Assembly (NCBI GenBank): GCA_036267695.1
Contig: DATAVO010000047.1
Coordinates: 4,364-68,363, forward strand
Direction: 5' to 3'
Source: Frankiaceae bacterium
GTDB taxonomy: Bacteria > Actinomycetota > Actinomycetes > Frankiales > Frankiaceae
Length of the DNA: 64,000 nt
The first letter of the stretch is position 1. Every line of letters begins with the position of its first letter. Made by a program: the position numbers and the translations under genes. The notes beneath the pieces were generated by a model, which did not search any database, was not told the DNA's origin, and worked only from the letters and a program-made list of their open reading frames with translations. Of this stretch, positions 6,288-28,227 are shown one piece after another.

Positions 6288-6321
6288 CTGACCAGCCTAC
6301 GGGCACGCACCGGACCCTCAA

Positions 6322-6392
6322 GATCAACGCTGCCATGATCTTGAAATGAGCCCGTTGATCATGCCTTAACCATGATCATGGCAGCGTTGATC
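6322..6392. repeat. 19-bp perfect inverted repeat with a 33-nt low-GC spacer
   Basis: gatcaacgctgccatgatc (6322..6340) and gatcatggcagcgttgatc (6374..6392) are exact reverse complements. The right arm overlaps the agmatinase stop codon. Several TGATCA/CATGATC sub-palindromes lie inside. Confidence 0.8.
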
Positions 6393-7311
6393 ATGGGAGG
6401 CGACCGTCGAGCAGTGGCTGGGCCGGATCCCACGGGGTGCCCCCGGCCGCGTCGCGCCGCTTGCGGGCCGTCGCCGAGAGCACCTCGAGCGCCACCCGGT
6501 TCGCCAGCGCAGCGGTGATGTCGGCCGTGTCGTAGGGCGGCGATACCTCCACGATGTCGACCCCCACCACCGGCAGTGAGTACGCGAGCCCGCGGACCGC
6601 GTCGAGCAGCTCGCGTGCGGTCAGGCCGCCGGGCTCCGGGGTGCCGGTCCCAGGCGCGTGGCCCGGGTCGCAGACGTCGATGTCGATCGACAGGAAAACG
6701 CCATCGCAGTCGTCGGTCGCGATGGCCGAGGCTTCGGCCAGGCACGCGTCGAGCCCCCGCACGCCGATCTCGGTCATCTCATACGAACGCATGCCCTGGC
6801 GGGCCATCCACTCCAGCGTCTCCGGGCCCGGCCAGTAGCCGCGAAGCCCCACCTGCAAGAACCGGTCGCCGCGCAGCGCACCCGACTCGATGAGCCGGCG
6901 CATCGGCTGGCCGTGACCCCAGAGCGAGCCGAATTCGATGTCACCGGTGTCGGCATGCGCGTCGAAGTGGATCATCGAGACCCGGCCGTGGCCGAGCACG
7001 TTGGCCACGCCGGTGGCGTCAGGCAGCGCAATCGAATGGTCGCCGCCCAGTACCAGCGGCATCGCTCCAGCAGCGGCCACCGCCTGGACAGCCGACTCCA
7101 GCGCGCCGAGCGCCCGTTCGATGTCGCCGGCGAACATCTCCACGTCGCCGGCATCGACCACCTTCAGGTCGCGTAACCCATCGGTGCGCAAAGCCAGTGA
7201 GGGCCGGGGCCCGTCGTGGGGAAGGTAGTCGGTCGTCCGGATCGCCATGGGTCCGAAGCGGGTGCCCGGACGGTGCGACGTGCCGCCGTCGAACGGCGCC
7301 CCGACGATCAC
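6391..7311 (-). CDS. speB: arginase-family ureohydrolase, probably agmatinase; the 5' end may be frameshifted
   Basis: Metal-binding motifs are present: LGGDHSIALP, HFDAHADTGD and SIDIDVCDPGHAPGTGTPEPGG. The longest ORF starts at a GTG directly at the VIVGAPFDGG motif, so it lacks the usual ~40-aa N-terminal segment (see finding). Confidence 0.8.
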   Translation of the reverse strand: MIVGAPFDGGTSHRPGTRFGPMAIRTTDYLPHDGPRPSLALRTDGLRDLKVVDAGDVEMFAGDIERALGALESAVQAVAAAGAMPLVLGGDHSIALPDATGVANVLGHGRVSMIHFDAHADTGDIEFGSLWGHGQPMRRLIESGALRGDRFLQVGLRGYWPGPETLEWMARQGMRSYEMTEIGVRGLDACLAEASAIATDDCDGVFLSIDIDVCDPGHAPGTGTPEPGGLTARELLDAVRGLAYSLPVVGVDIVEVSPPYDTADITAALANRVALEVLSATARKRRDAAGGTPWDPAQPLLDGRLP

Positions 7312-8460: not shown

Positions 8461-11595
<3,135 letters not shown>

Positions 11596-16172: not shown

Positions 16173-17474
16173 CTACTTCAGGAAGTCGGGGACGTCGAGG
16201 TCGTCGAACACGACCGGACGCCGAGGCTCGGAGCGCGGCGACTCGGACGCCGGCCGGCTCGCCGGACGGGTCGAACCCGGCGGCGAGGTCGGCGCAGCAG
16301 TGGAGGGCGCGGGTGCGCCGCCCGAGCCAGTAGCGGCCGCCGCGGGACGAACCGGGGCCGGCTTGACGTTCGGACGCTCGGTCACCCGGGTCGCGGATTC
16401 CGCACCCGCCGGGGCCGCTACGCGCGCCGGCTCCTCGCGAAGGTCGACGATCCGCGGATCCGTCGGCGAGCCCGGCGCACCCGGAGCCCGGCGACCGACA
16501 TTGCCGTAGCCCTTCGTGCGGCGCTCTGCAGGAGCGTCGAAGCCGGCGGCGATGACGGTGACCCGGACCTCATCGCCCAGCGCGTCGTCGATGACGGCAC
16601 CGAAAATGATGTTGGCCTCGGGGTGGGCCGCCTCCGCGACGAGTTCGGCAGCCGCGTTGATCTCGAACAGGCCGAGGTCGGAACCACCCGAGATGTTCAG
16701 CAGCACGCCCTGCGCGCCGTCCATGCTCGCCTCGAGCAGCGGGCTCGAAATCGCCTGCTGCGCCGCTACTTCTGCCCGGTCTTCGCCGCGAGCGCGACCG
16801 ATACCCATGAGCGCGCTGCCCGCTTGGGTCATCACCGCTTTGACGTCAGCGAAGTCGAGGTTGATCAGACCCGGGGTGGTGATGAGATCGGTGATGCCCT
16901 GCACGCCCTGCAGCAGCACCTGGTCCGCGCTCTTGAAGGCGTCCATGACGCTGACGTGATGCTCGGCGGTCGAGAGCAGCCGGTCGTTCGGGATGACGAT
17001 CAGGGTGTCGACCTCGGCGCGCAGCGCGTCGATGCCGTCGTCGGATTGGTTGGCGCGGCGCCGTCCTTCGAAGGTGAACGGCCGGGTCACGACGCCGATG
17101 GTGAGCGCTCCGCCCGAGCGGGCGACATTGGCGACGACCGGCGCCCCGCCGGTGCCCGTGCCACCGCCTTCACCTGCGGTCACGAAGACCATGTCGGCGC
17201 CCTTCAGCACCTCTTCGATCTCCTCGCGGTGATCCTCGGCGGCCTGCCGGCCGACGTCGGGGTTCGCTCCGGCACCGAGGCCACGGGTCAGCTCGCGGCC
17301 GACGTCGAGCTTGACGTCGGCGTCGCTCATCAAAAGCGCCTGGGCGTCGGTATTGATGGCGATGAACTCGACGCCCTTGAGCCCCACGTCAATCATTCGA
17401 TTGACGGCATTGACCCCGCCCCCGCCGATACCGACGACCTTGATGACGGCGAGGTAGTTCTGAGGGGCAGGCAT
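16173..17474 (-). CDS. ftsZ: cell division GTPase FtsZ
   Basis: I set the start at ATG 17474 ([27 protein letters not shown]), preceded by GGAGGA 7 nt upstream. The tubulin signature [13 protein letters not shown] is present. The ORF-track start at 17543 adds 23 non-conserved residues. Confidence 0.93.
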
Positions 17475-17856
17475 ACGGCGGTCCTCCATGGCGGAAACGA
17501 GCGAGTGGGCCTCGAGCGGTCGACTTGAACCCTCAACCCTCACCGTTAAGTTGACGGTTACCAGGCGGTATGGCTTCGGTCTGGGCGCAGACTAGCCCAG
17601 CCATCGACTCTGTCCGCCAGTGTTACGGCGTGTCGCAACAGAACCTGCGTGGGGTCCGCGGTAGTGCCTCCTTTTGACGCCATGCGGCCCCCAAAAATCG
17701 CCCATCGTCAGAACAATTGCGACTGTCCGTCTTGACGCGGACCGCTCCCCACGGGACGAAAAAGAGGGAAGATCAGGTTGCGCGGCCGTCTCCATAGCTG
17801 TCACTGCACCGACCCTCGATGCGGAGTTCACCCTCGACGTCTCGGTCAGGCTTCAG

Positions 17857-19302
17857 TCAGGCTTCGGTGAGTTCGCGAAGGACCTCTGGTCCGAGCAGAG
17901 TGACGTCCCCGGCGCCCATTGTCAGCAAGAGATCGCCCGGCCGGGCGAGGGCCGCCAGCAATGCCGGAACGCGGGCCCAGGTGGGTTCGTAGACCACGCG
18001 GTCCACCGGCGGCGGCACCGCGTCGACGATGGTTTGCCCGCTGATCCCGGGGATCGGGTCCTCCCCCGCGGGATAGACGTCCATCACGACGATCACGTCC
18101 GCCAGGCCGAGTGCCTCGCCGAACTCCCTGCCGAAGGCGGCCGTGCGGCTGTAGCGATGCGGCTGGAAGGCAACGAGCAGCCGGCCCGTTCCCGCCACTG
18201 GCCGGGCCGCCGACAGCGTGGCAGCGACCTCCGTCGGATGGTGGCCGTAATCGTCGATCACAGTGACGCCTTGCGCCCGGCCCTTGAGCTCGAAACGCCG
18301 GCGCACGCCCGGGTAGCCGGCAAGCCCGTGCAACAGGTTCGGCGCCGGCACACCCAGTTGCAGGCCGGCAGCGAGTACTGCTGCCGAGTTCCGCGCGTTG
18401 TGGGCGCCTGGCACCTGCAGCGTCACCTCACCCAGCCGGCGCCCCCGCGAGACCGCCTGGTAGCTGACCCCGGCGCCGCCATCGCCGGTACGCAGCTTGT
18501 CGATCCTCACGTCGGCATCGGCGGCCGTGCCGTAGGAAACCGCTCGTACCCCACGGGATCTGGCGAGCGGAAGCAGCCGCGCGGCGCCCGGATCGTCCAG
18601 GCACGCGACCAGAAATCCCGCCGGATCGATGCGTTCGAGGAATCGATCGAAGGCTCGGTCGACAGCGGCCGCATCGGCGTAATGGTCGAGATGATCAGGC
18701 TCGACGTTCGTGACGATGGCGCCGTACGGCGCGAGCAGCAGGAAGGAGCCGTCGCTCTCGTCGGCCTCGGCCACGAAGATGTCTCCGCTGCCGGCGTGCG
18801 CGTTGCTGCCCGGCTCGGAAAGATCACCGCCGATGGCGAACGAGGGGTGCAACCCGGCGTCCTGCAGCGCCACCGTGAGCATCGAGGTGGTGGTCGTCTT
18901 GCCGTGCGTTCCGGCGATCGCGACGCCCTTGCGACCCTTCATCAGCGCGGCCAGAGCCGCCGCCCTGGGAAGCACGCTCAGGCCGAGACGGTGAGCCTCG
19001 ACGAGCTCGGGATTGGTGGCCCGGATAGCGGTCGAGGTGACGACGGTGGCCGGCTCCGGACCGCCGCCTACCGCCCCGAGATGGGCCGCGTCATGGCCGA
19101 CGAAGACGGTGGCCCCGACCTGACGAAGGGCCGCGAGCACGCGGCTGTCACGGGCGTCACTGCCGCTGACGATGCCGCCGCGGGCCAGCAGCAGGCGGGC
19201 GATGCCGCTCATGCCGGCGCCGCCCATGCCGATCAGGTGGACGCGAGCAAGCTCGGGGGGCAGATCGGCGGGCACCTGTCCCATTGTCCGCGCTCCGGTC
19301 AC
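17857..19302 (-). CDS. murC: UDP-N-acetylmuramate--L-alanine ligase
   Basis: 481 aa. Contains [17 protein letters not shown] and [13 protein letters not shown]. There is a 4-nt overlap with the murG stop. Confidence 0.9.
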
Positions 19303-20475: not shown

Positions 20476-22050
20476 TCAGCGGTTGGGTATCCGGCGACGC
20501 GAACGCGTGGATCCGGCGCCCCGCGGGAGGCCACCCAAGCGCGTGCCGCGAGTGCGGGCGGAGCGTGCTGCGCCGCCGCGGGCCTGCCGGACGGAGGCGC
20601 GACTGCTGCTCCCGCCGCTGCGAGCACCGGCGCCGGCGCGGGCCCTCGTCGTGCGGGTCGGCTTCGCCGCTGCGCCCCTCTGACCCTTGCTCTTGCGCGT
20701 GTTCGTGGTCTTTCGGCCGCGCCCTCGCCCGATGCTGAGGAAGGCGAAACGCGGTGTGCGTCCGACCGAGCGGAGCGCCGAGCGACTGGCCGCGCGGGCG
20801 GCGATGACCTGTGCCGCGGCCGGCTCGGTCTTGGCAAGGGCCAGCAAAATCCCGATGGCGAACATGGTCAGCAGCAGCGATGAGCCGCCGAACGAGATCA
20901 GCGGCAGCGGGATGCCGGTGATCGGCAGCAGACCGACCACCGCGCCCATGTTGATCAGCGCCTGACCGACGAGCCACGCGGTAATCGCTGCGGCGGCGAG
21001 GCGTCCGAACTGATCCGACGAACGCTGGGCGACCCGGATTCCTCCGTACGCCAGGACGCAGAAGAGCACGACGACGAGCAGGGTGCCGACGAGGCCGAGC
21101 TCCTCGCCGATGACCGCGAGGATGAAGTCGGTGTGGGCGTTGGGGAGGTAGGACCACTTCTCCCGGCTGGCGCCGAGGCCGACGCCCCACCACCCGCCGG
21201 AGGCCAGCGCGTACAAACCCTGCACGGCCTGCCATCCGGTGTCCTGGGAGTCCTTGAACGGGTCGGCGAACGACGCCAGCCGGGCCAGCCGGTAAGGCTC
21301 GGCCACCGCGAGATAGGTGACGAGCATGCCGATCACCGAGAGCAGGCCGGCGAACAGCCGTGCCGGGGAGCCGACCACCCACAGCAGGGTCATCAGGATC
21401 GTGACGATGACCAGGGTGGTGCCGAGGTCGGGCTCGAGCATGACGAGCATGGCGAGCAGGGTCGCGACCGGCAGCAGCGGGATGAGCAGGTGGCGCCACT
21501 CGCGTAGCCGCCGCTTCTTGCGCACCAGCAGATCCGCGCCCCACAGCGCGAGCCCCAGCTTGGCGAGCTCGCTCGGCTGCAGCGTGAACGAGCCCACACC
21601 GATCCAGCGGGTCGCCCCGTAAGCCGACACCCCGATGCCCGGCACCAGCACGAGAAACAACCCGCCGATGCCCGTGAGCAGAAGCGGATACGCGAGCATC
21701 CGCAGCACTCGGATCGACATCCGGTTGGCGAGCAGCAGCGCGGGGACTCCGATCGCCACCCACATCAGCTGCTTGATGAAGACCGAGAACGAGGAACCGG
21801 ACGTCGCGTATGAGGTGACGCTCGAGGCCGACAGCACCATGACCAGGCCGAGACCCAGCAGCAAGGCGCTCGCCGAAGCGATCAGGTAGTACGACGCCAT
21901 CGGCCGGGCCAGCAGCGGTACCCGCTGGCTGTCGGTGGAGGCCTGCGGCTCGGGCGCACTTCGGGCCGGCCGCTGGGGCCGCGCGCCTGGCGGCCGGGGC
22001 GTGCGGGTGCGCCGGACGCCAGGGGTCCCTGGAGTGTCCAGTGCCGCCAC
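20476..22050 (-). CDS. ftsW: SEDS-family peptidoglycan glycosyltransferase FtsW with an Arg-rich C-terminal tail
   Basis: 524 aa and polytopic. Contains LQPSELAKL and [26 protein letters not shown] lies 4 nt before the GTG start. Confidence 0.88.
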
Positions 22051-22183
22051 AAAGCCTCCCGTGCACGCTCAGGGCAGAACGGTGCGCCTGCCGCCCGGGC
22101 ATCGTCCCCGGTCAGAGCCCGTGAAGTGGGGATCTTTGCCGCGTGTCGGACAGCGTGTCCCGGATCTCGCCTCCCCCGTGGTC

Positions 22184-22239
22184 GGCGCCGATTAATCCCC
22201 TTCGCACGCCCCCACGTGCAGAGGGGATTAATCGGCGCC
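22184..22239. repeat. 18-bp perfect inverted repeat (plus an inner 5-bp stem) immediately after the mraY stop
   Basis: ggcgccgattaatcccct (22184..22201) and aggggattaatcggcgcc (22222..22239) are exact reverse complements. An inner gcacg/cgtgc stem lies at 22204..22208 and 22215..22219. Each arm contains the palindromes GGCGCC and GATTAATC. No U-tract is present. Confidence 0.8.
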
Positions 22240-22249
22240 AAACCCGGGG

Positions 22250-23320
22250 TCAGTGCAGCGAGCCGTGGGAGAGGAACTCGGCGTAGAACAACCCGAGGCC
22301 AAGGGCGACGGTCAGGCCGCCGATGATCCAGAACCTGATGATGACGGTCGTCTCCGGCCAGCCGGCGAGTTCGAAATGGTGATGGATCGGCGCCATGTTG
22401 AACACGCGTCTGCCGGTCAGCTTGAACGACGCGACCTGCAGGATGACCGAGACGGTCTCCAGTACGAACAGGCCGCCGAGGATGACCAGGAGCAGTTCGG
22501 TACGCGTCACGATGGCCATGGCGGCGAAGGCGCCGCCGAGCGCGAGCGACCCGGTGTCGCCCATGAAGATCCGGGCGGGGCTCGCGTTCCACCACAGGAA
22601 ACCGAAACAGGCGCCCATCGCCGCGGCGGCGACTATCGCCACGTCGAGCGGATCTCGGGCGACATAGCAGGATGCGGCGTTTCCGCCGTCACCGCACTCG
22701 TTGCCGAACTGCCAGAACGAGATGATGACGTACGCGCCGAAGACCATCGCGCTGGTGCCGGCGGCGAGCCCGTCGAGGCCGTCGGTCAGGTTCACCGCGT
22801 TGGACGTCGCGGAGATCATGAGCCAGGCCAGGATCGGGAAGCCGATCGTGCCCACCGAGAAGTCGATGTCGCGTACCCAAGAGAGCTCGGTAGAGCCGGG
22901 CAGGTAACCCTGAGGGTTGCGGAAACGCACGGCCAGGAGTCCGAACGCGAGCGCGACGGCGAGCTGTCCGATGAACTTGGTACGGGCCGAGAGCCCGAGG
23001 TTTCGCTGCCGCCGGATCTTGATGTAGTCATCGGCGAGACCGACGATTCCGAGGCCCGCCATGACCATCAGGATCAGCAGTCCGCTGGCGGTGAAGCCGC
23101 GCATGGTCGAGAGGTGGGCGACGCCGTACCCGGCCAGGGTGGCGATGATGATCACCGCCCCGCCCATGGTCGGCGTGCCGCGCTTGGTCAGGTGGCTCTG
23201 CGGTCCGTCCTCGCGGATCTCCTGGCCATAGCCCCGGCGGGTGAACAGCCGGATCGCCTGAGGGGTGCCGACCAGCGAGATGAAAAGGGCGACCGAGGCC
23301 GCGATGAGGACGCTCTTCAC
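22250..23320 (-). CDS. mraY: phospho-N-acetylmuramoyl-pentapeptide transferase
   Basis: I set the start at GTG 23320, which overlaps the murF stop (GTGA) and gives [18 protein letters not shown].... Contains KRGTPTMGG and [13 protein letters not shown]. The ORF-track extension to 23851 lies inside murF. Confidence 0.9.
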
Positions 23321-24738
23321 GCCGCGTGCTCCGGGGCCCCGGTCAGCAGGGCAGCGGCTACGCGTTCCAGGCCGGCCGCGCGGCTCGCCTTCACCAAGAC
23401 GACCGTGTTTGCCGCCTGATCCGGGCTGATCTCGTCGCGGAGCACCGCGAGCGCCGCTGTCACGTCGGCGGCGAGCACCGGCTCCTCGCGCGCGCCCTCG
23501 AGACGCGCGCCGGTGTGGATGGCCGCGGCGTCCGCACCGACCACCACGACCTTGTCGACGCCGAGACGCACCGCGAGGCGGCCGAGGGCGTCGTGCTCGT
23601 CGACGGTCGTCGGGCCCAGTTCGTACATCGGCCCGAGCACGGCAATGGTGCGCCGTGCGTCGCGCCCGGACGCCGGTTTCCCCATCAGGGCAAGGGATTT
23701 CAGAGCTGCGCGCATGGACTCGGGGTTGGCGTTGTAGGCGTCGTTGACCACCGTCAGGCCCGAGGATGTGGTCGCCACTTCCATCCGCCAGCGTGACCGC
23801 GGGCCGGCCGTCGCCAGGTCCTGCGCCACCTGCGATGGTGTCCGTCCGCATTCCACCGCGACCGCCGCCGCTGCCAGCGCATTGCTGACCTGATGGGCGC
23901 CGACGAGGGCCAGCCGGGTACGGGTACGGGCACGTCCCTGCGGGGTGACGAGCGTGAAGCCCGCCCGACCCTCGGGGTCGAGGTCGACGTCCTCCGCCCG
24001 GACCTGGGCGTCAGGGCTCTCGCCGAAGGTGACGACGCGGGCGCGAGTGCGCGAGGCCATCGCCAGCACCAGCGGGTCGTCGGCGTTCAGCACGGCGACA
24101 TCACCTGCGGCCTCGGCCAACTCGCCCTTGCTCTCCGCGATGGCCTGCCGGCTGCCGAACTCGCCGAGGTGCGCGCTGCCGACATTGAGCACCACGCCGA
24201 TCGACGGCGGCGCCATCGCGCACAACCGGGCGATGTGACCGCGTCCGCGCGCCCCCATCTCCAGTACCAGGAAGCGGGTCGACGCGTCAGCGCGGAGCGC
24301 CGTCAACGGAACTCCGAGATCGTTGTTGTAGGAGCCGGGGGGCGCGATCGTGGGGCCTGCGGGCTCCAGCAGCGCGGCGACGAGATCCTTGGTGCTCGTC
24401 TTGCCGGACGATCCGGTCAGCCCGATCACGCGCACCTGCGGGATCTGGCGCAGCGCATGCGCCGCGAGTGCACCCATGGCCGCGGCGACATCCGCCACCA
24501 CGATCGCGGGCTCGGACGCGGGACGGGTGCCCAGGATGGCGAGGGCACCGGCAGCAATCGCACCGGCCGCGTGATCGTGCCCGTCGGTGTGCTCTCCCGG
24601 CAGGGCAGCGAACAGGAGGCCGGGCTCGACCAGCCGCGAGTCGATCACCAGTCCGGTGGCGACCTTGTCGGCGGCTTCCGGCGGCACGACGGCCCCGTGC
24701 ACGGCATTCGCCACATCGCTCAAACGCAAGCCGATCAT
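23317..24738 (-). CDS. murF: UDP-N-acetylmuramoyl-tripeptide--D-alanyl-D-alanine ligase
   Basis: 473 aa. Contains [13 protein letters not shown]. There is a 4-nt overlap with the murE stop. Confidence 0.9.
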
Positions 24739-26321
24739 GCGCCGCTCACCGGATTCCCCAGCGTGGACCCGGCAGCGGACATGGCGGCGCGCAGCACCTC
24801 ACGATCATCAAACGGGTGAACGACGCCGGCGATGTCCTGACCGGTCTCGTGCCCCTTGCCGGCGATGACGACGGCGTCACCGGCCCGCGCGCGGTGGACC
24901 GCGAGTGCGATTGCCGCGGCCCGGTCGGGCTCGACCACGAAGTCCCCCGCGGAACTGATCCCCGCGGCGGCTTTGCGCGCCCCGTCGCTCATCTCGCCGA
25001 GGATCGCGAGCGGATCTTCCGACCGTGGATTGTCACTGGTCAGGATCGCCTCGTCGGCGCCGAGGACGGCGGCGGCTCCCATCAGCGGTCGCTTGCCCCG
25101 ATCGCGATCTCCCCCGCAGCCGAGTACGAGCAGCAGCCGGCCCGGTACCAGTTCGCGCACCGTCTGCAGCAGGCTTGCGACTGCTGCGGGGGTGTGCGCG
25201 TAGTCCACCAGAGCGAGGAACGGCTGGCCGGCGTCGATCCTTTCCATCCGGCCCGGGACGCCTGCCAGCCCGGCGACGCCCTCCAGCGCCGCCTCCAGCG
25301 GCGTGCCGGTCTGGGCCAGGAGCGCGATCGAGCACAGCGCGTTGCTCACGTTGAACGACCCGGGCATGGCGACGTGAGCCTTGACGGGGGCATCGGCGCC
25401 GGGCGCGAGCACCCCGAAGTCGGAGCCCGCCGGGCCGCACCGCACCTCGACGGCGCGCCAGCCGGCGTCCGCGGCGAAGCCGAACGTGACGGCATCCGGA
25501 TGGCGCAGGGCGAGCCGGCGGCCGTGCTCGTCGTCAGCGGAAACGACCGCTCCCGCGGCGGCCAGGAAACCCCGCCTGGGATCGAAGAGCGACGCCTTGG
25601 CCTCGAAGTAGTCCTCGAGATCGGTGTGGAAATCGAGATGGTCCTGGCTGAGGTTGGTGAAGGCCGCCCCGGCGAACCGGCAGCCATCGACCCGGTGCAA
25701 CGCCAGGGCATGGCTGGAGACCTCCATCGCGGCGGCGTCGACCCCCCGCTCGAGCATGGTCGCGAAGAGCGCCTGCAGCTCGGGGGCCTCAGGGGTCGTG
25801 CGCACACTCGGAACGACCACGTCGGCGATCCTGGTCGCCACCGTACCGATCAGTCCTGTGCGATGCCCCGCCGCGGCCAGGCCCGCCTCCAGCAGGTAGG
25901 CGACGGTCGTCTTGCCGTTGGTGCCGGTGACTCCCAACAGGGTCAGATGCCGGGTCGGGTCCCCGTAGATCGCCGCGGCGACGTCGCCGAGGACGGCCCT
26001 CGGTTCGGTGACCGTGAGGACTGCCACACCCGACGCGTCACCGATCAACACCGCGCCGGCCGGATCCGTGAGGATCGCCGCGGCCCCTGCCCCGACAGCC
26101 TGCTCCGCGAACTCCGCGCCATGCACGCGTGCACCGGGGAGAGCGGCATAGAGATCGCCGGGCTGGACCCGCCGTGAGTCCAGGGTGACACCCCGGATGA
26201 CGGCCGCCCGGTCGGCGGACCCGCTTTCGGCTGCCGCTCCCCCGCTGCGCGCCACCGCCTTCTGCACCCGTTCGAGCGAGACCTCGGGCGCCGTTGCCGG
26301 GCGAAGCGCCGTGGAACTCAC
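24735..26321 (-). CDS. murE: UDP-N-acetylmuramoyl-L-alanyl-D-glutamate--2,6-diaminopimelate ligase
   Basis: 528 aa. Contains GVTGTNGKTT and the DNPR motif (LTSDNPRSEDP), which indicates meso-DAP specificity. Confidence 0.9.
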   Translation of the reverse strand: MSSTALRPATAPEVSLERVQKAVARSGGAAAESGSADRAAVIRGVTLDSRRVQPGDLYAALPGARVHGAEFAEQAVGAGAAAILTDPAGAVLIGDASGVAVLTVTEPRAVLGDVAAAIYGDPTRHLTLLGVTGTNGKTTVAYLLEAGLAAAGHRTGLIGTVATRIADVVVPSVRTTPEAPELQALFATMLERGVDAAAMEVSSHALALHRVDGCRFAGAAFTNLSQDHLDFHTDLEDYFEAKASLFDPRRGFLAAAGAVVSADDEHGRRLALRHPDAVTFGFAADAGWRAVEVRCGPAGSDFGVLAPGADAPVKAHVAMPGSFNVSNALCSIALLAQTGTPLEAALEGVAGLAGVPGRMERIDAGQPFLALVDYAHTPAAVASLLQTVRELVPGRLLLVLGCGGDRDRGKRPLMGAAAVLGADEAILTSDNPRSEDPLAILGEMSDGARKAAAGISSAGDFVVEPDRAAAIALAVHRARAGDAVVIAGKGHETGQDIAGVVHPFDDREVLRAAMSAAGSTLGNPVSGA

Positions 26322-26370: not shown

Positions 26371-28227
26371 TCATCCGGCCGTCTGGGGATAGATCACGGG
26401 CGTGGTCCCCGTCGGCGGCACCCGCAGGCTGGTCAGGCCAAACGCCATGATCTGGGAGAAGACGGGAGCCGCGACGTCGCCGCCGTAGATGCTCGTCTTC
26501 GGATCGTCGAGTGTGACGAGGACAACCAGCGAGGGATTGTCAGCCGGGGCGAAGCCGACGAACGAGGCGACGTAGCCCGAGTACTTGCCGGTGGTGGGGT
26601 CGACCCGGTTGGCCGTACCCGTCTTGCCGGCGACCCGATAGCCGGCCACCGAGGCCTTCTCACCGGTTCCGCTCGTCGACGTGGTCACCTGCTCGAGCAG
26701 CTGCGACATGGTCTTGGCCGTCTGGGCACTCACGACGCGGTGGGTGGCGCCCTTCGCGGCCGGCACGACATCACCTTTGCCGTTGATGGAGCCGCTGATG
26801 ACGCGCGGCGTGACGCGCACCCCGCCGTTGGCGATGGTCGCGTACGCATCGGCGACCTGGAGAGCGTTCACCGACATGCCCTGCCCGTACGGGATGGTCG
26901 CTGCGGTCGAGTCCGTCCAAGTGCTCGCCTTCCTGAGCAGGCCGGGCGACTCACCGGGGAGGTTGACTCCGGTCAGCGAACCGAGGCCGAACTTGCGCAG
27001 CTCGCTCTCGAGGGCCTCACGGGAGGGGAGCTTGCGGCTGATCAGCAGCGCACCTTCATTACTCGATTGGGCAATGACCCCCGCCACCGTGAGGGTTTCA
27101 TCGGGGTGGGTCTCGGCATCGTTGATGTGGAACGGCGGCACCGAGATGCCTGGAGGCGAGGCGGGGATGCCGATCGCGGTGGTCGGCGTGACGATGCCAC
27201 GGTCGACGGCGGCACTGACGGTGATGAGCTTGTTGACGCTGCCGGGCTCAAAAGTCCATTCCACATCAGGGTTGTGCAGGTCTGCGTCGGTGATCTTGCC
27301 CGGGTCGTTGGGGTTGAATCCAGGCGCGCTCGCCATCGCGTAGATGTCGCCGGTGTGCGGGTTCATCACGATGGCGACACCCTGGATCGCACCGGAGGCC
27401 TTCACCTCGGCGCCGAGCGCCTGCTCCGCCTTGTACTGGATGTCCCGGTCGAGCGTCAGTTGCAGCCCCTGCCCGGGAACCGGCGCCTTCTCGCGGTGCG
27501 TACCGGAAGGAATCACCCGCCCCTGCGGGTCTTCCTCGACGACGAGCGTGCCGTTCTTACCGGCCAGGCTCGTGTTGTACGCGAACTCCAAGCCGGCGGA
27601 ACCGTTGCCATCGCGTCCTACGATGCCCAGCACGTTAGCGGCCAGATTGCCTGCCGGATAAAGCCGTTTGCGCTGCGGAAGGGTGCCGATGCCGGGCAGC
27701 GCAAGCTTGGTGACCGCGTCTCCGACAGTGGTGTCGACGTCATAGGCGAGGTAGCGGAACGGGGTGTTGTTGAGCAGATCGGCGGTGAGGTCGGCAACGG
27801 ACATGTGCAGCACCGGGGCGAGCTTGTTGGCCTCGCCGACGACGTCGGTCACCTTCGGCGGCTGCACATACACGTCGTTCGCATCGACGTCGACGGCGAG
27901 CACGTTGCCGGAGCGGTCAGTGATCTCGCCGCGGGTCGCGGGCTGATCGACGGTGTGGGTGCGCTGCTGTTCGGCAAGCGCCGCGTACGTATGGGATTTG
28001 AAGCCCTGCAACTGCACGAGACGCCCGGCCAACAAAAGGAAGAGCGCCGCCATTGCAGCAGCCGCCATCCGCAGTCGGCGGCCGGACGAGCGCAGCCGGA
28101 ATCCGGGGTGCTTGCGCCGCCAGCGGCTCTTGGCCCGGGTGCTTGCCGGGCGCGCGGCGGGGCGGCGCGGCGGAGTCCGCGACGGGACCGGACGCTGGCG
28201 GACCGGCGGCGGCGCGGTCGGGCTCAT
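26371..28227 (-). CDS. ftsI: class B penicillin-binding protein (FtsI/PBP3-type transpeptidase)
   Basis: 618 aa with an N-terminal TM segment. Contains SxxK (GSVNK), SxN (QSSNEG) and KTGT (AGKTGTAN). There is a TGATG overlap with the ftsL-like stop. Confidence 0.9.
   Translation of the reverse strand: MSPTAPPPVRQRPVPSRTPPRRPAARPASTRAKSRWRRKHPGFRLRSSGRRLRMAAAAMAALFLLLAGRLVQLQGFKSHTYAALAEQQRTHTVDQPATRGEITDRSGNVLAVDVDANDVYVQPPKVTDVVGEANKLAPVLHMSVADLTADLLNNTPFRYLAYDVDTTVGDAVTKLALPGIGTLPQRKRLYPAGNLAANVLGIVGRDGNGSAGLEFAYNTSLAGKNGTLVVEEDPQGRVIPSGTHREKAPVPGQGLQLTLDRDIQYKAEQALGAEVKASGAIQGVAIVMNPHTGDIYAMASAPGFNPNDPGKITDADLHNPDVEWTFEPGSVNKLITVSAAVDRGIVTPTTAIGIPASPPGISVPPFHINDAETHPDETLTVAGVIAQSSNEGALLISRKLPSREALESELRKFGLGSLTGVNLPGESPGLLRKASTWTDSTAATIPYGQGMSVNALQVADAYATIANGGVRVTPRVISGSINGKGDVVPAAKGATHRVVSAQTAKTMSQLLEQVTTSTSGTGEKASVAGYRVAGKTGTANRVDPTTGKYSGYVASFVGFAPADNPSLVVLVTLDDPKTSIYGGDVAAPVFSQIMAFGLTSLRVPPTGTTPVIYPQTAG

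What the first reader, a model, noticed from the sequence alone, without database searches (positions are those of the whole stretch)
22051..22249. murD missing between mraY and ftsW; its slot holds a spacer with an 18-bp perfect palindromic hairpin
Seen: mraY stops at 22250 and ftsW starts at 22050, leaving only 199 nt between them. Eleven nt after the mraY stop lies ggcgccgattaatcccct / aggggattaatcggcgcc (22184..22201 and 22222..22239), an exact inverted repeat. It has an inner 5-bp stem and no U-tract. Each arm is itself built from two palindromes, GGCGCC and GATTAATC. The flanking Mur ligase genes have normal lengths, so murD is not fused to a neighbour. Established: mraY-murD-ftsW is the conserved order, as in mycobacteria. 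Inference: together with the missing ftsQ, two separate genes have been removed from a tightly overlapped operon. The hairpin could be an excision scar, a processing or attenuation element that sets ftsW-murG-murC stoichiometry, or a protein-binding site.
Basis: partly seen in the sequence, partly recalled or inferred. Interest (0 to 1): 0.6.

Follow-up and report, generated by a model that had tools for sequence, protein, structure and literature searches.

The report
murD deletion scar plus palindromic repeat
In this uncultured Frankia-like soil bacterium the essential cell-wall gene murD was deleted from its usual operon slot, leaving a decayed stub that keeps the regulator-binding motif for the next gene, ftsW; the hairpin is a copy of a small scattered repeat, and where murD now lies could not be checked.

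Summary
mraY ends at 22250 and ftsW starts at 22050.

No murD lies anywhere in the 64 kb. The slot was not always empty:
- Bases 22171-22075 are a frameshifted remnant of murD codons ~383-417.
- The ftsW Shine-Dalgarno is the old murD 3' end.
- All eight examined close-clade loci (~75% DNA identity) keep murD in place.

murD has left this slot at least five separate times in Actinomycetota, including in cultured Pseudofrankia asymbiotica. Every spacer keeps the same 3' piece. That piece holds GACACGC, matching the published WhiA motif. In intact murD genes a rare Arg codon preserves it in 67 of 73 loci. In Streptomyces it lies about 269 nt before ftsW, where WhiA binds.

The hairpin is not an excision scar:
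- A related strain in the same soil run has the same deletion without the hairpin.
- Nine other contigs of that run carry diverged copies with different flanks.

It is most likely a low-copy dispersed palindromic repeat inserted between the mraY stop and the ftsW promoter.

The ftsQ slot is empty in every locus examined from the family-level clade.

The parts
22250..23320 (-). mraY (356 aa). GTG start at 23320 overlaps the murF stop; TGA stop at 22250-22252.
   Evidence: TIGR00445 at 330 bits. Start mapped. 89-91% identical to the MraY of L001 and L002.
22174..22249 (.). Extended inverted repeat: 35-nt arms, 86% complementary. It begins directly after the mraY stop.
   Evidence: Longest inverted repeat in the window. 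RNA fold of -64.1 kcal/mol on the sense strand and -60.4 on the antisense strand.
22184..22239 (.). Core 56-nt palindromic element. Perfect 18-bp arms (GGCGCC-GATTAATC-CCCT) at 22222-22239 and 22184-22201. Inner stems at 22214-22220 and 22203-22209. Loop GGGG at 22210-22213.
   Evidence: Nine contigs of run X1 match parts of 22182-22249 (most 22182-22242) with 5-8 mismatches and unrelated flanks. A sister-strain read lacks the element.
22075..22171 (-). Decayed murD remnant, corresponding to MurD codons ~383-417. It has a 1-nt frameshift and in-frame stops.
   Evidence: blastn gives 78% identity over 88 nt to the L082 murD (E=1e-11) and E=3e-7 to L001. MAFFT alignment; CCGACACGCGGCAAAGATCCCC is 22/22 identical to L082.
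22140..22147 (-). GACACGCG: orthologue of the conserved WhiA-type motif embedded in murD codons 393-395. It lies 97 nt upstream of the ftsW GTG.
   Evidence: The motif is GACACGC[G/C/A/T] in 67 of 73 loci. Published motifs are GACAC (PMC3781837) and GACACGCC (PMC13473873).
22152..22159 (-). Second GACACGCT motif, 109 nt upstream of the ftsW GTG. It is not present in intact relatives at this position.
22055..22060 (-). GGGAGG Shine-Dalgarno of ftsW. It is homologous to the last codons of murD (CGG AGG CTT, '..RRL') in relatives.
   Evidence: Alignment; coordinates.
20476..22050 (-). ftsW (524 aa). The GTG start at 22050 gives the N-terminus (M)AALDTPG, matching the relatives' MTALDTPG.
   Evidence: TIGR02614 at 395 bits. 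N-termini of L001 and L002.
   Evidence: The same short gap occurs in L001, L002, L007, L081, L082, L094 and L095. Outgroups L011 and L027 encode FtsQ there.

Best explanation
The 199-nt spacer has two layers.

(1) It is the scar of a deletion of about 1.1 kb. The deletion removed the mraY-murD intergenic bases and roughly the first 380 codons of murD, and a second deletion of about 105 nt followed nearer the 3' end. What survives is a non-coding stub. Selection keeps the stub because it carries the ftsW-specific regulatory region that normally lies inside the murD 3' end: a WhiA/WhiB-type activator site (GACACGC) and the ftsW ribosome-binding site. MurD itself is presumed to be encoded elsewhere in the genome.

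(2) The 56-nt perfect palindrome is a later arrival. It is one copy of a low-copy dispersed palindromic repeat that landed between the mraY stop codon and the ftsW promoter stub.

Its most likely effect, which is inferred and not shown, is on RNA. It forms a very stable stem-loop without a U-tract, starting 0-10 nt after the mraY stop. Such a structure should protect the upstream mraZ-mraY transcript from 3' exonucleases and reduce read-through or translational coupling. ftsW-murG-murC would then depend more on the WhiA-box promoter.

Shown:
- the deletion and its remnant;
- conservation of the motif;
- that the hairpin is polymorphic between strains;
- that hairpin look-alikes are dispersed in the metagenome.

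Inferred:
- that WhiA binds here;
- that the repeat copies lie in this same genome;
- any effect on RNA;
- that murD lies elsewhere.
For: Deletion and remnant:
- All eight examined close-clade loci (L001, L002, L081, L082, L094, L095, L096, L097) have mraY-murD-ftsW.
- Window 22169-22084 aligns to L082 murD nucleotides 1101-1187 at 78% identity. This is as high as the flanking coding DNA, which is 73-82% identical.
- Homology to the relatives ends no more than 7 nt after the mraY stop.

Recurrence:
- An MraY tree needs 5 independent changes to explain the murD-less state.
- In Pseudofrankia asymbiotica (L003) the change is a clean 1207-nt deletion relative to its sister locus L083.
- Five of the six murD-less spacers keep GACACGC at the homologous place; L019 has GCCACGCC there.

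Nucleotide-level constraint:
- MurD codon 393 is CGA in 65 of 72 intact genes; L048 uses AGA, which also preserves the motif.
- CGA plus AGA make up only 5.2% of 9890 Arg codons in the dcw genes of the same loci.

Match to published work:
- The WhiA motif is GACAC. WhiA footprints on the ftsW promoter region, and its ChIP peak lies 269 bp upstream of ftsW. The authors infer an ftsW-specific promoter inside the operon (PMC3781837).
- In five Streptomyces loci the motif lies 263-282 nt before the likely ftsW ATG.
- The M. tuberculosis WhiA/WhiB2 motif is GACACGCC, and WhiB2 binds upstream of ftsW and activates it (PMC13473873).

Hairpin as a dispersed repeat:
- Nine contigs of run X1, at depth 2.7-8.1, match parts of 22182-22249 (most 22182-22242) with 5-8 mismatches and then run into unrelated sequence. 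The window's organism is at depth 6-10 in that run.
- A 151-nt read from X1 joins the mraY end to the murD stub through 21 nt instead of 77 nt. The difference is 56 nt, the size of the element.
Against: - It is therefore shown neither that murD lies elsewhere nor that the repeat copies are in this genome.
- The sister-strain difference is 77 nt against 21 nt of unlike sequence. It is not a clean insertion with a target duplication.
- There is no other copy in the 64-kb window, none in 1.17 Mb of relatives' dcw loci, and none in JGI metagenome contigs.
- No TANNNT -10 hexamer is visible downstream of the GACAC motifs (my reading of the sequence), and the sigma-70 scan found nothing. The promoter itself is therefore not located.
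Identifying it with this motif rests on distance and conservation.
- No exact read contig covers the hairpin.
Confidence: 0.6

Rival explanations
1. The hairpin is a locally evolved factor-independent terminator or attenuator that now ends the mraZ-mraY transcription unit. ftsW-murG-murC-ftsZ would then be a separate operon.
For: The stem is very stable (-48 to -64 kcal/mol) and sits directly after a stop codon and just upstream of a putative promoter stub. L043, another murD-less locus, also has a GC hairpin right after mraY.
Against: There is no U-tract on either strand. From my own knowledge, not checked here: mycobacterial RNA polymerase has been reported to need a U-tract at intrinsic terminators. 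The whole 52-56 nt, loop included, recurs in other contexts in the same run, which is not what a terminator evolved in place would show. A sister strain does without it.
Confidence: 0.15
2. The palindrome is a protein-binding site. Two GATTAATC half-palindromes lie 36 bp apart and could serve as an operator or nucleoid-protein site controlling ftsW. The other copies would be further members of that regulon.
For: Each arm is built from two sub-palindromes. It forms an AT-rich patch in a 70% GC genome, 25-50 nt upstream of the GACAC motifs. From PMC10243135: an alpha-CTD binds DNA upstream of the WhiA site at the sepX promoter.
Against: The look-alike copies match through the loop as well as the arms (matches span 22182-22242). 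That points to common descent of a whole element rather than a shared operator. No relative has the motif in its dcw region. The sister strain lacks it.
Confidence: 0.08
3. The hairpin is the footprint of the event that removed murD, for example the remaining ends of a transposon or a hairpin-forming excision.
For: It sits exactly between the two deletion breakpoints.
Against: A related strain has the same breakpoints and the same stub without the hairpin. The clean 1207-nt deletion in L003 left only 5 nt at the junction. Copies of the hairpin exist elsewhere.
Confidence: 0.07
4. The junction is an assembly artefact: a collapse or false join through a repeat in a low-coverage metagenome-assembled genome.
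For: Coverage is about 6x. No exact contig spans 22153-22594 in run X1. A repeat sits at the junction.
Against: An independent read of a related strain joins the mraY end directly to the murD stub. The stub is frameshifted and shortened, as an old pseudogene would be. The other repeat copies differ at 5-8 positions. From my own knowledge, that is too many for a false join based on shared k-mers.
Confidence: 0.05

Closest known systems
Canonical actinobacterial dcw cluster (mraZ-rsmH-ftsL-ftsI-murE-murF-mraY-murD-ftsW-murG-murC-ftsQ-ftsZ, as in Mycobacterium and Streptomyces)
   Same: ftsI through ftsZ (identified by Pfam/NCBIfam) are present on one strand in the canonical order with overlapping stop and start codons; ORFs upstream fit mraZ, rsmH and ftsL but were not scanned.
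   Different: murD is reduced to a non-coding stub of about 100 nt. The ftsQ slot is empty, a state shared by every locus examined from the family-level clade. A 56-nt palindrome follows mraY.
WhiA/WhiB-dependent ftsW promoter of Streptomyces venezuelae (Bush et al. 2013, PMC3781837; Lilic et al. 2023, PMC10243135) and the WhiA/WhiB2 regulon of M. tuberculosis (PMC13473873)
   Same: A GACAC(GC) motif lies upstream of ftsW inside the dcw operon. It sits at the position orthologous to the motif conserved in 67 of 73 actinobacterial murD genes. In Streptomyces loci it is about 269 nt from the ftsW start, the same distance as the published ChIP peak.
   Different: Here the motif is no longer inside a coding gene. 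It lies only 97 nt from the ftsW start because of a second deletion, and it is duplicated (22152-22159). Binding has not been tested.
REP/BIME-type extragenic palindromes and small MITEs
   Same: It is a short, GC-rich, dispersed palindrome in intergenic DNA just after a stop codon, and it differs between related strains.
   Different: It has no GTAG-type 5' end and no visible target-site duplication. Copy number seems low (about ten look-alikes in the run, none elsewhere in 64 kb). No RAYT or transposase could be looked for. No Rfam family matches.
Other murD-less dcw clusters noted earlier in this scan (Trebonia relatives, e1-3964125; Bacteroidota with only the MurD C-domain, e1-4017825)
   Same: murD is lost from between mraY and ftsW while a 3' piece is kept. 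L041 and L061 in my set, a clade sister to Streptosporangiaceae MAGs in the MraY tree and possibly the lineage of e1-3964125, show it.
   Different: This is a separate event in a Frankiaceae-like lineage. The stub here is clearly non-coding, and a palindromic repeat has been added.

Membership tests
MurD (UDP-MurNAc-L-Ala:D-Glu ligase, TIGR01087) | An ORF in the window that reaches the equivalog cutoff of 212 bits | tested here: not met
   murE, murF and murC score 87, 81 and 80 bits. tblastn with the L002 MurD finds only these three, plus a 25-aa stub hit at 22074-22148.
MurD (UDP-MurNAc-L-Ala:D-Glu ligase, TIGR01087) | A copy elsewhere in the same genome | not testable with these tools
Relatives are only about 75% identical in DNA, below the 80% floor of read laying. 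The attempt was uninformative.
Canonical dcw cluster | Gene order mraY-murD-ftsW | tested here: not met
   The gap is 199 nt, with a murD remnant only.
Canonical dcw cluster | Gene order murC-ftsQ-ftsZ | tested here: not met
   The gap is 313 nt in the window. The slot is also empty in L001, L002, L007, L081, L082, L094 and L095. FtsQ is present there in L011 and L027.
WhiA-box promoter | GACAC (M. tuberculosis: GACACGCC) motif upstream of the target gene | tested here: met
   GACACGCG at 22140-22147 and GACACGCT at 22152-22159.
WhiA-box promoter | The motif is conserved beyond what the coding sequence requires, at the orthologous place | tested here: met
   CGA in 65 and AGA in at least one more of 72 genes at MurD codon 393, against a 5.2% background. 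The motif is kept in 5 of 6 murD-less spacers.
WhiA-box promoter | WhiA/WhiB binding and a transcription start downstream | not testable with these tools
   No RNA runs are available. No -10 element was recognised.
Intrinsic terminator | GC-rich stem-loop | tested here: met
   18 + 7 base pairs, -48 kcal/mol for the core.
Intrinsic terminator | U-tract directly after the stem | tested here: not met
   The stem is followed by GACCACGGGGG.
REP elements | Many extragenic copies per genome, a conserved GTAG-like head, and an associated RAYT gene | tested here: inconclusive
   The head is GGCGCC, not GTAG. There are about nine look-alikes in run X1 but none elsewhere in the window. RAYT could not be looked for.
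MITE | Terminal inverted repeats plus a target-site duplication | tested here: not met
   The 18-bp inverted repeats are present. The flanks TTT and GAC are not a direct repeat. At 56 nt it is shorter than the MITEs I know of (my knowledge, not checked here).
Rfam RNA families | A match at the gathering score | tested here: not met
   Only generic hairpin hits to miRNA models, at 22-27 bits against cutoffs of 63-72.

The most novel reading that the evidence does not exclude
This lineage has no orthologous MurD anywhere in its genome, and the same holds for the other actinobacterial lineages that independently deleted murD from the dcw cluster, including cultured Pseudofrankia asymbiotica. D-glutamate would then be added to UDP-MurNAc-L-Ala by a very divergent or non-homologous enzyme. 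Acquiring that enzyme would be what made the repeated deletions possible.

The evidence does not exclude this reading:
- Every one of the 11 MurD homologues whose context was checked (8 from the close clade, 3 from the Pseudofrankia group) sits in a canonical mraY-murD-ftsW context.
- No MurD named for P. asymbiotica appears among the 120 best homologues of a sister Pseudofrankia MurD.
- Two earlier notes on other lineages also report that MurD was not found.
Probability: 0.1. Interest if true: 0.85.

Novelty: new variant of a known kind. Interest (0 to 1): 0.5.

Why it matters
The dcw cluster is one of the most stable gene orders in bacteria, and murD is essential. Repeated, independent removal of murD from its slot is therefore unexpected.

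Each time, the same short 3' piece is retained. This shows that part of a coding gene can be preserved for the regulatory site buried inside it.

The rare CGA codon fixed across Actinomycetota gives a simple sequence signature of the WhiA-dependent ftsW promoter. It suggests that this developmental and cell-cycle control of ftsW is ancient and widespread.

Practical consequences:
- Annotation pipelines and completeness estimates should not expect murD next to mraY in these lineages.
- If murD turns out to be missing from the whole genome, an unknown route for adding D-glutamate would be implied, in a pathway that is a drug target.

The palindrome itself is of minor interest unless it proves to be a regulator.

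Tried and rejected
- Exact look-up of the window's MraY in public assemblies: not on record, with either V or M as the first residue.
- Laying run X1 on the L002 murD at 80% likeness: hundreds of short pieces from other organisms and nothing attributable. I later realised a vertically inherited murD would be only about 75% identical, below the tool's floor.
- Context of 11 MurD homologues: eight at 73-100% identity to the L002 MurD and three Pseudofrankia-type at 85-100% to P0050. All are canonical; no relocated copy was found.
- Search for a P. asymbiotica MurD by name among the best 120 homologues, and in the clusters of P0050 and P0053: none. No sequencing run of that isolate is indexed.
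- Metagenome scan for the two-arm pattern: eight hits, all unrelated sequences on contigs of 26-58% GC (window 70%); seven are tandem or palindromic repeats.
- Runs holding the exact hairpin words: none. RNA runs for the operon: none.
- Rfam: only sub-threshold miRNA-like hairpin hits.
- Sigma-70 promoter and terminator consensus scan: nothing.
- Microhomology at the deletion breakpoints in L083 and L082: none seen. Slippage between direct repeats is therefore not supported.
- The 237-aa ORF 21882-22595 that reads through the spacer: no Pfam hit. I treated it as a spurious high-GC ORF.
- Laboratory scar or adapter sequence: considered and dropped, because diverged natural copies exist in the metagenome.

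Full report
**What is there**

The window has 70% G+C. Its minus strand carries a dcw cluster that Pfam and NCBIfam identify without ambiguity:
- ftsI, 26371-28227
- murE, 24735-26321
- murF, 23317-24738
- mraY, 22250-23320, with a GTG start overlapping the murF stop
- ftsW, 20476-22050
- murG
- murC, 17857-19302
- ftsZ, 16173-17543

The mraY-ftsW gap is 199 nt. The arms 22184-22201 and 22222-22239 are exact reverse complements. The 18-mer and its GATTAATC core occur nowhere else in the window. With an inner stem and partly paired flanks, this is the longest inverted repeat in the 64 kb. The 76-nt RNA folds at -64 kcal/mol.

No U-tract follows the stem, no sigma-70-like promoter or terminator pattern was found, and no Rfam family matches.

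No murD is encoded anywhere in the window. The three Mur ligases fit their own NCBIfam models and fall far below the murD cutoff. A tblastn search with a relative's MurD finds only these paralogues.

**Who the organism is, and what its relatives have**

MraY finds its closest relatives (89-91% identity) in uncultured Frankiaceae-like genomes. A soil metagenome run, X1, holds 74% of the sampled words of 21000-23500 of the window, at a depth of about 6-10.

All eight examined loci of this clade have an intact or nearly intact murD between mraY and ftsW. These are L001, L002, L081, L082, L094, L095, L096 and L097, and all are about 75% identical to the window in DNA.

**The spacer is a deletion scar**

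- Homology to the relatives runs through mraY and stops no more than 7 nt after its stop codon.
- It resumes at window 22169, which aligns to nucleotides 1101-1187 of the L082 murD (78% over 88 nt, E=1e-11).
- A MAFFT alignment shows the stub 22171-22075 co-linear with MurD codons ~383-417. It has a one-base frameshift and in-frame stops. CCGACACGCGGCAAAGATCCCC is identical to L082 at 22 of 22 positions.
- A further ~105 nt of the murD 3' end is missing.
- The old last codons (CGG AGG CTT) survive as the GGGAGG Shine-Dalgarno, 4 nt before the ftsW GTG.

So murD was removed in this lineage; it was not absent ancestrally.

**The ftsQ slot is a different story**

The murC-ftsZ gap is short (about 250-540 nt) in the loci examined from this family-level clade where murC directly precedes ftsZ; in the Frankia and Pseudofrankia loci murC is inverted and no ftsQ lies in the slot either. 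Outgroups L011 and L027 encode a POTRA/FtsQ protein there. That loss is old and says nothing about this genome in particular.

**The deletion is recurrent and always keeps the same piece**

Among 83 related loci, five others lack murD between mraY and ftsW:
- L003, the cultured Pseudofrankia asymbiotica
- L019
- L043
- the sister pair L041 and L061

On an MraY tree the murD-less state needs five independent changes. In L003 the event is a clean 1207-nt deletion relative to its near-identical sister L083, with 5 nt at the junction and no microhomology.

In every case the spacer starts within a few bases of the mraY stop and retains the part of murD that encodes '..ARHAP..'.

I then looked at codon use in 72 intact actinobacterial murD genes:
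- Arg393 is the rare codon CGA in 65 of them; L048 uses AGA.
- CGA plus AGA make up only 5.2% of 9890 Arg codons in the dcw genes of the same loci.
- The result is an almost invariant GACACGC[G/C/A/T], present in 67 of 73 loci.
- It is the only four- or six-fold degenerate codon in the last 100 codons whose third position is nearly fixed.

This is constraint at the nucleotide level, not the protein level.

**What the conserved motif is likely to be**

- GACAC is the published binding motif of WhiA. In Streptomyces venezuelae, WhiA footprints on the ftsW promoter region and its ChIP-seq peak lies 269 bp upstream of the ftsW start. The authors conclude that an ftsW-specific promoter lies inside the dcw operon (PMC3781837).
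- In five Streptomyces loci of my set, the murD-embedded motif lies 263-282 nt before the likely ftsW ATG.
- In M. tuberculosis the WhiA/WhiB2 motif is the 8-mer GACACGCC, and WhiB2 binds upstream of ftsW and activates it (PMC13473873).
- WhiA sits upstream of the -35 element, bridged to sigma-A by WhiB, and the spacing is variable (PMC10243135).

The window keeps the orthologous GACACGCG at 22140-22147, 97 nt before the ftsW GTG. It has a second GACACGCT at 22152-22159.

My reading is that the stub is retained because it is the WhiA/WhiB-dependent ftsW promoter region. That would explain why all independent deletions stop short of it. This step is inferred. Binding was not tested, I could not recognise a -10 element, and the published footprint sequence itself was not available to me.

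**What the hairpin is**

In run X1, a 151-nt record from a related strain joins the end of mraY to the murD stub through 21 nt where the window has 77 nt (22170-22246). The difference is 56 nt, the size of the palindrome. The record shows 2-4 mismatches per 50 nt in the flanks. That strain therefore shares the deletion but lacks the hairpin, which rules out the hairpin as the scar of the excision.

Nine further X1 contigs, at depths 2.7-8.1, match parts of 22182-22249 (most 22182-22242), loop included, with 5-8 mismatches. They then continue into different, unrelated sequence on both sides. None was found in runs X2, X3 or X6.

The simplest reading is a low-copy dispersed palindromic repeat, one copy of which landed between the mraY stop and the ftsW promoter stub. 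It is not a canonical REP, a MITE or an intrinsic terminator:
- Its head is not GTAG, as a REP's would be.
- It has no target-site duplication, and at 56 nt it is shorter than the MITEs I know of.
- It has no U-tract, as an intrinsic terminator would.

Its likely effect is inferred by analogy with REP-type stem-loops, from my own knowledge. It should protect the 3' end of the upstream transcript and damp read-through and translational coupling into ftsW.

**Limits**

I could not look for murD, or for further copies of the palindrome, in the rest of the genome.
- Indirect routes failed.
- No exact public contig covers 22153-22594, so the precise hairpin sequence rests on the assembly.
- No RNA data exist for the locus.
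- All 11 MurD homologues whose context I checked were canonical. No P. asymbiotica MurD surfaced by name.
- Earlier notes of this scan on other lineages (e1-3964125, e1-4017825) also failed to find the displaced MurD. In a comparable case (e1-2278383) the 'missing' genes were later found elsewhere. I therefore put about 0.9 on murD being elsewhere in this genome and about 0.1 on a true replacement.

**Verdict**

The interpretation needs revision:
- The slot holds a murD pseudogene stub that doubles as the ftsW regulatory region.
- The hairpin is a secondary, strain-variable insertion of a dispersed palindrome.
- The ftsQ loss is unrelated.

The repeated, similarly bounded loss of murD, and the WhiA-type motif fixed by a rare codon across Actinomycetota, are the parts worth following up.

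Noticed in passing
MurD codon 393 in L001-L097 (e.g. L002 10244-10252; L056 10274-10282): A rare Arg codon (CGA, or AGA in L048) is nearly fixed in actinobacterial murD genes. It creates GACACGC, a WhiA-type motif about 190-220 nt before the murD stop. In Streptomyces loci the motif lies 263-282 nt before the ftsW ATG, which matches the published WhiA ChIP peak at 269 bp.
   Followed up: yes
window 17544-17856; L001, L002, L007, L081, L082, L094, L095: The ftsQ slot between murC and ftsZ is empty (250-540 nt) in every locus examined from the Frankiaceae-like clade, not only in this genome. Outgroups L011 and L027 have a POTRA/FtsQ gene there.
   Followed up: partly
L003 9047-9320 (Pseudofrankia asymbiotica NRRL B-16386) compared with L083 5891-7097: A cultured isolate has a clean 1207-nt deletion of murD relative to a sister Pseudofrankia. 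It keeps only the last ~104 codons, already with in-frame stops. No MurD named for this species was among the 120 best homologues.
   Followed up: partly
L003, L005, L083, L092, L093 (about 11-15 kb in each locus): In Frankia and Pseudofrankia the murC-like Mur ligase between murG and ftsZ lies on the opposite strand, so it is inverted relative to the rest of the cluster.
   Followed up: no
L001 9008-10469: The murD of the closest relative is split into two reading frames near 9727. This is either an indel error in the assembly or the start of decay in a second lineage.
   Followed up: no
window 6319-6395: The second-longest inverted repeat of the window: 25-nt arms, 92% complementary, 27 nt apart (CAAGATCAACGCTGCCATGATCTTG...). 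It lies at the junction of two minus-strand ORFs, its far arm reaching 5 nt into the start of the upstream one (6391-7311).
   Followed up: no
L043 1325-1400: Another murD-less locus (Jatrophihabitans) also has a compound GC-rich hairpin directly after the mraY stop and before its GACACGCG stub. Its sequence is unrelated to the hairpin in the window.
   Followed up: no
L056 10530-10546; L028, L059 likewise: Streptomyces loci carry a second GACAC inside GAGGGGACACC, immediately before the ftsW ATG and overlapping the ribosome-binding site.
   Followed up: no
window 21882-22595 (-): A 237-codon open frame runs through the mraY 3' end, the whole spacer and the ftsW 5' end. It has no Pfam match and is probably a spurious high-GC ORF. 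Part of it follows the old murD frame.
   Followed up: partly
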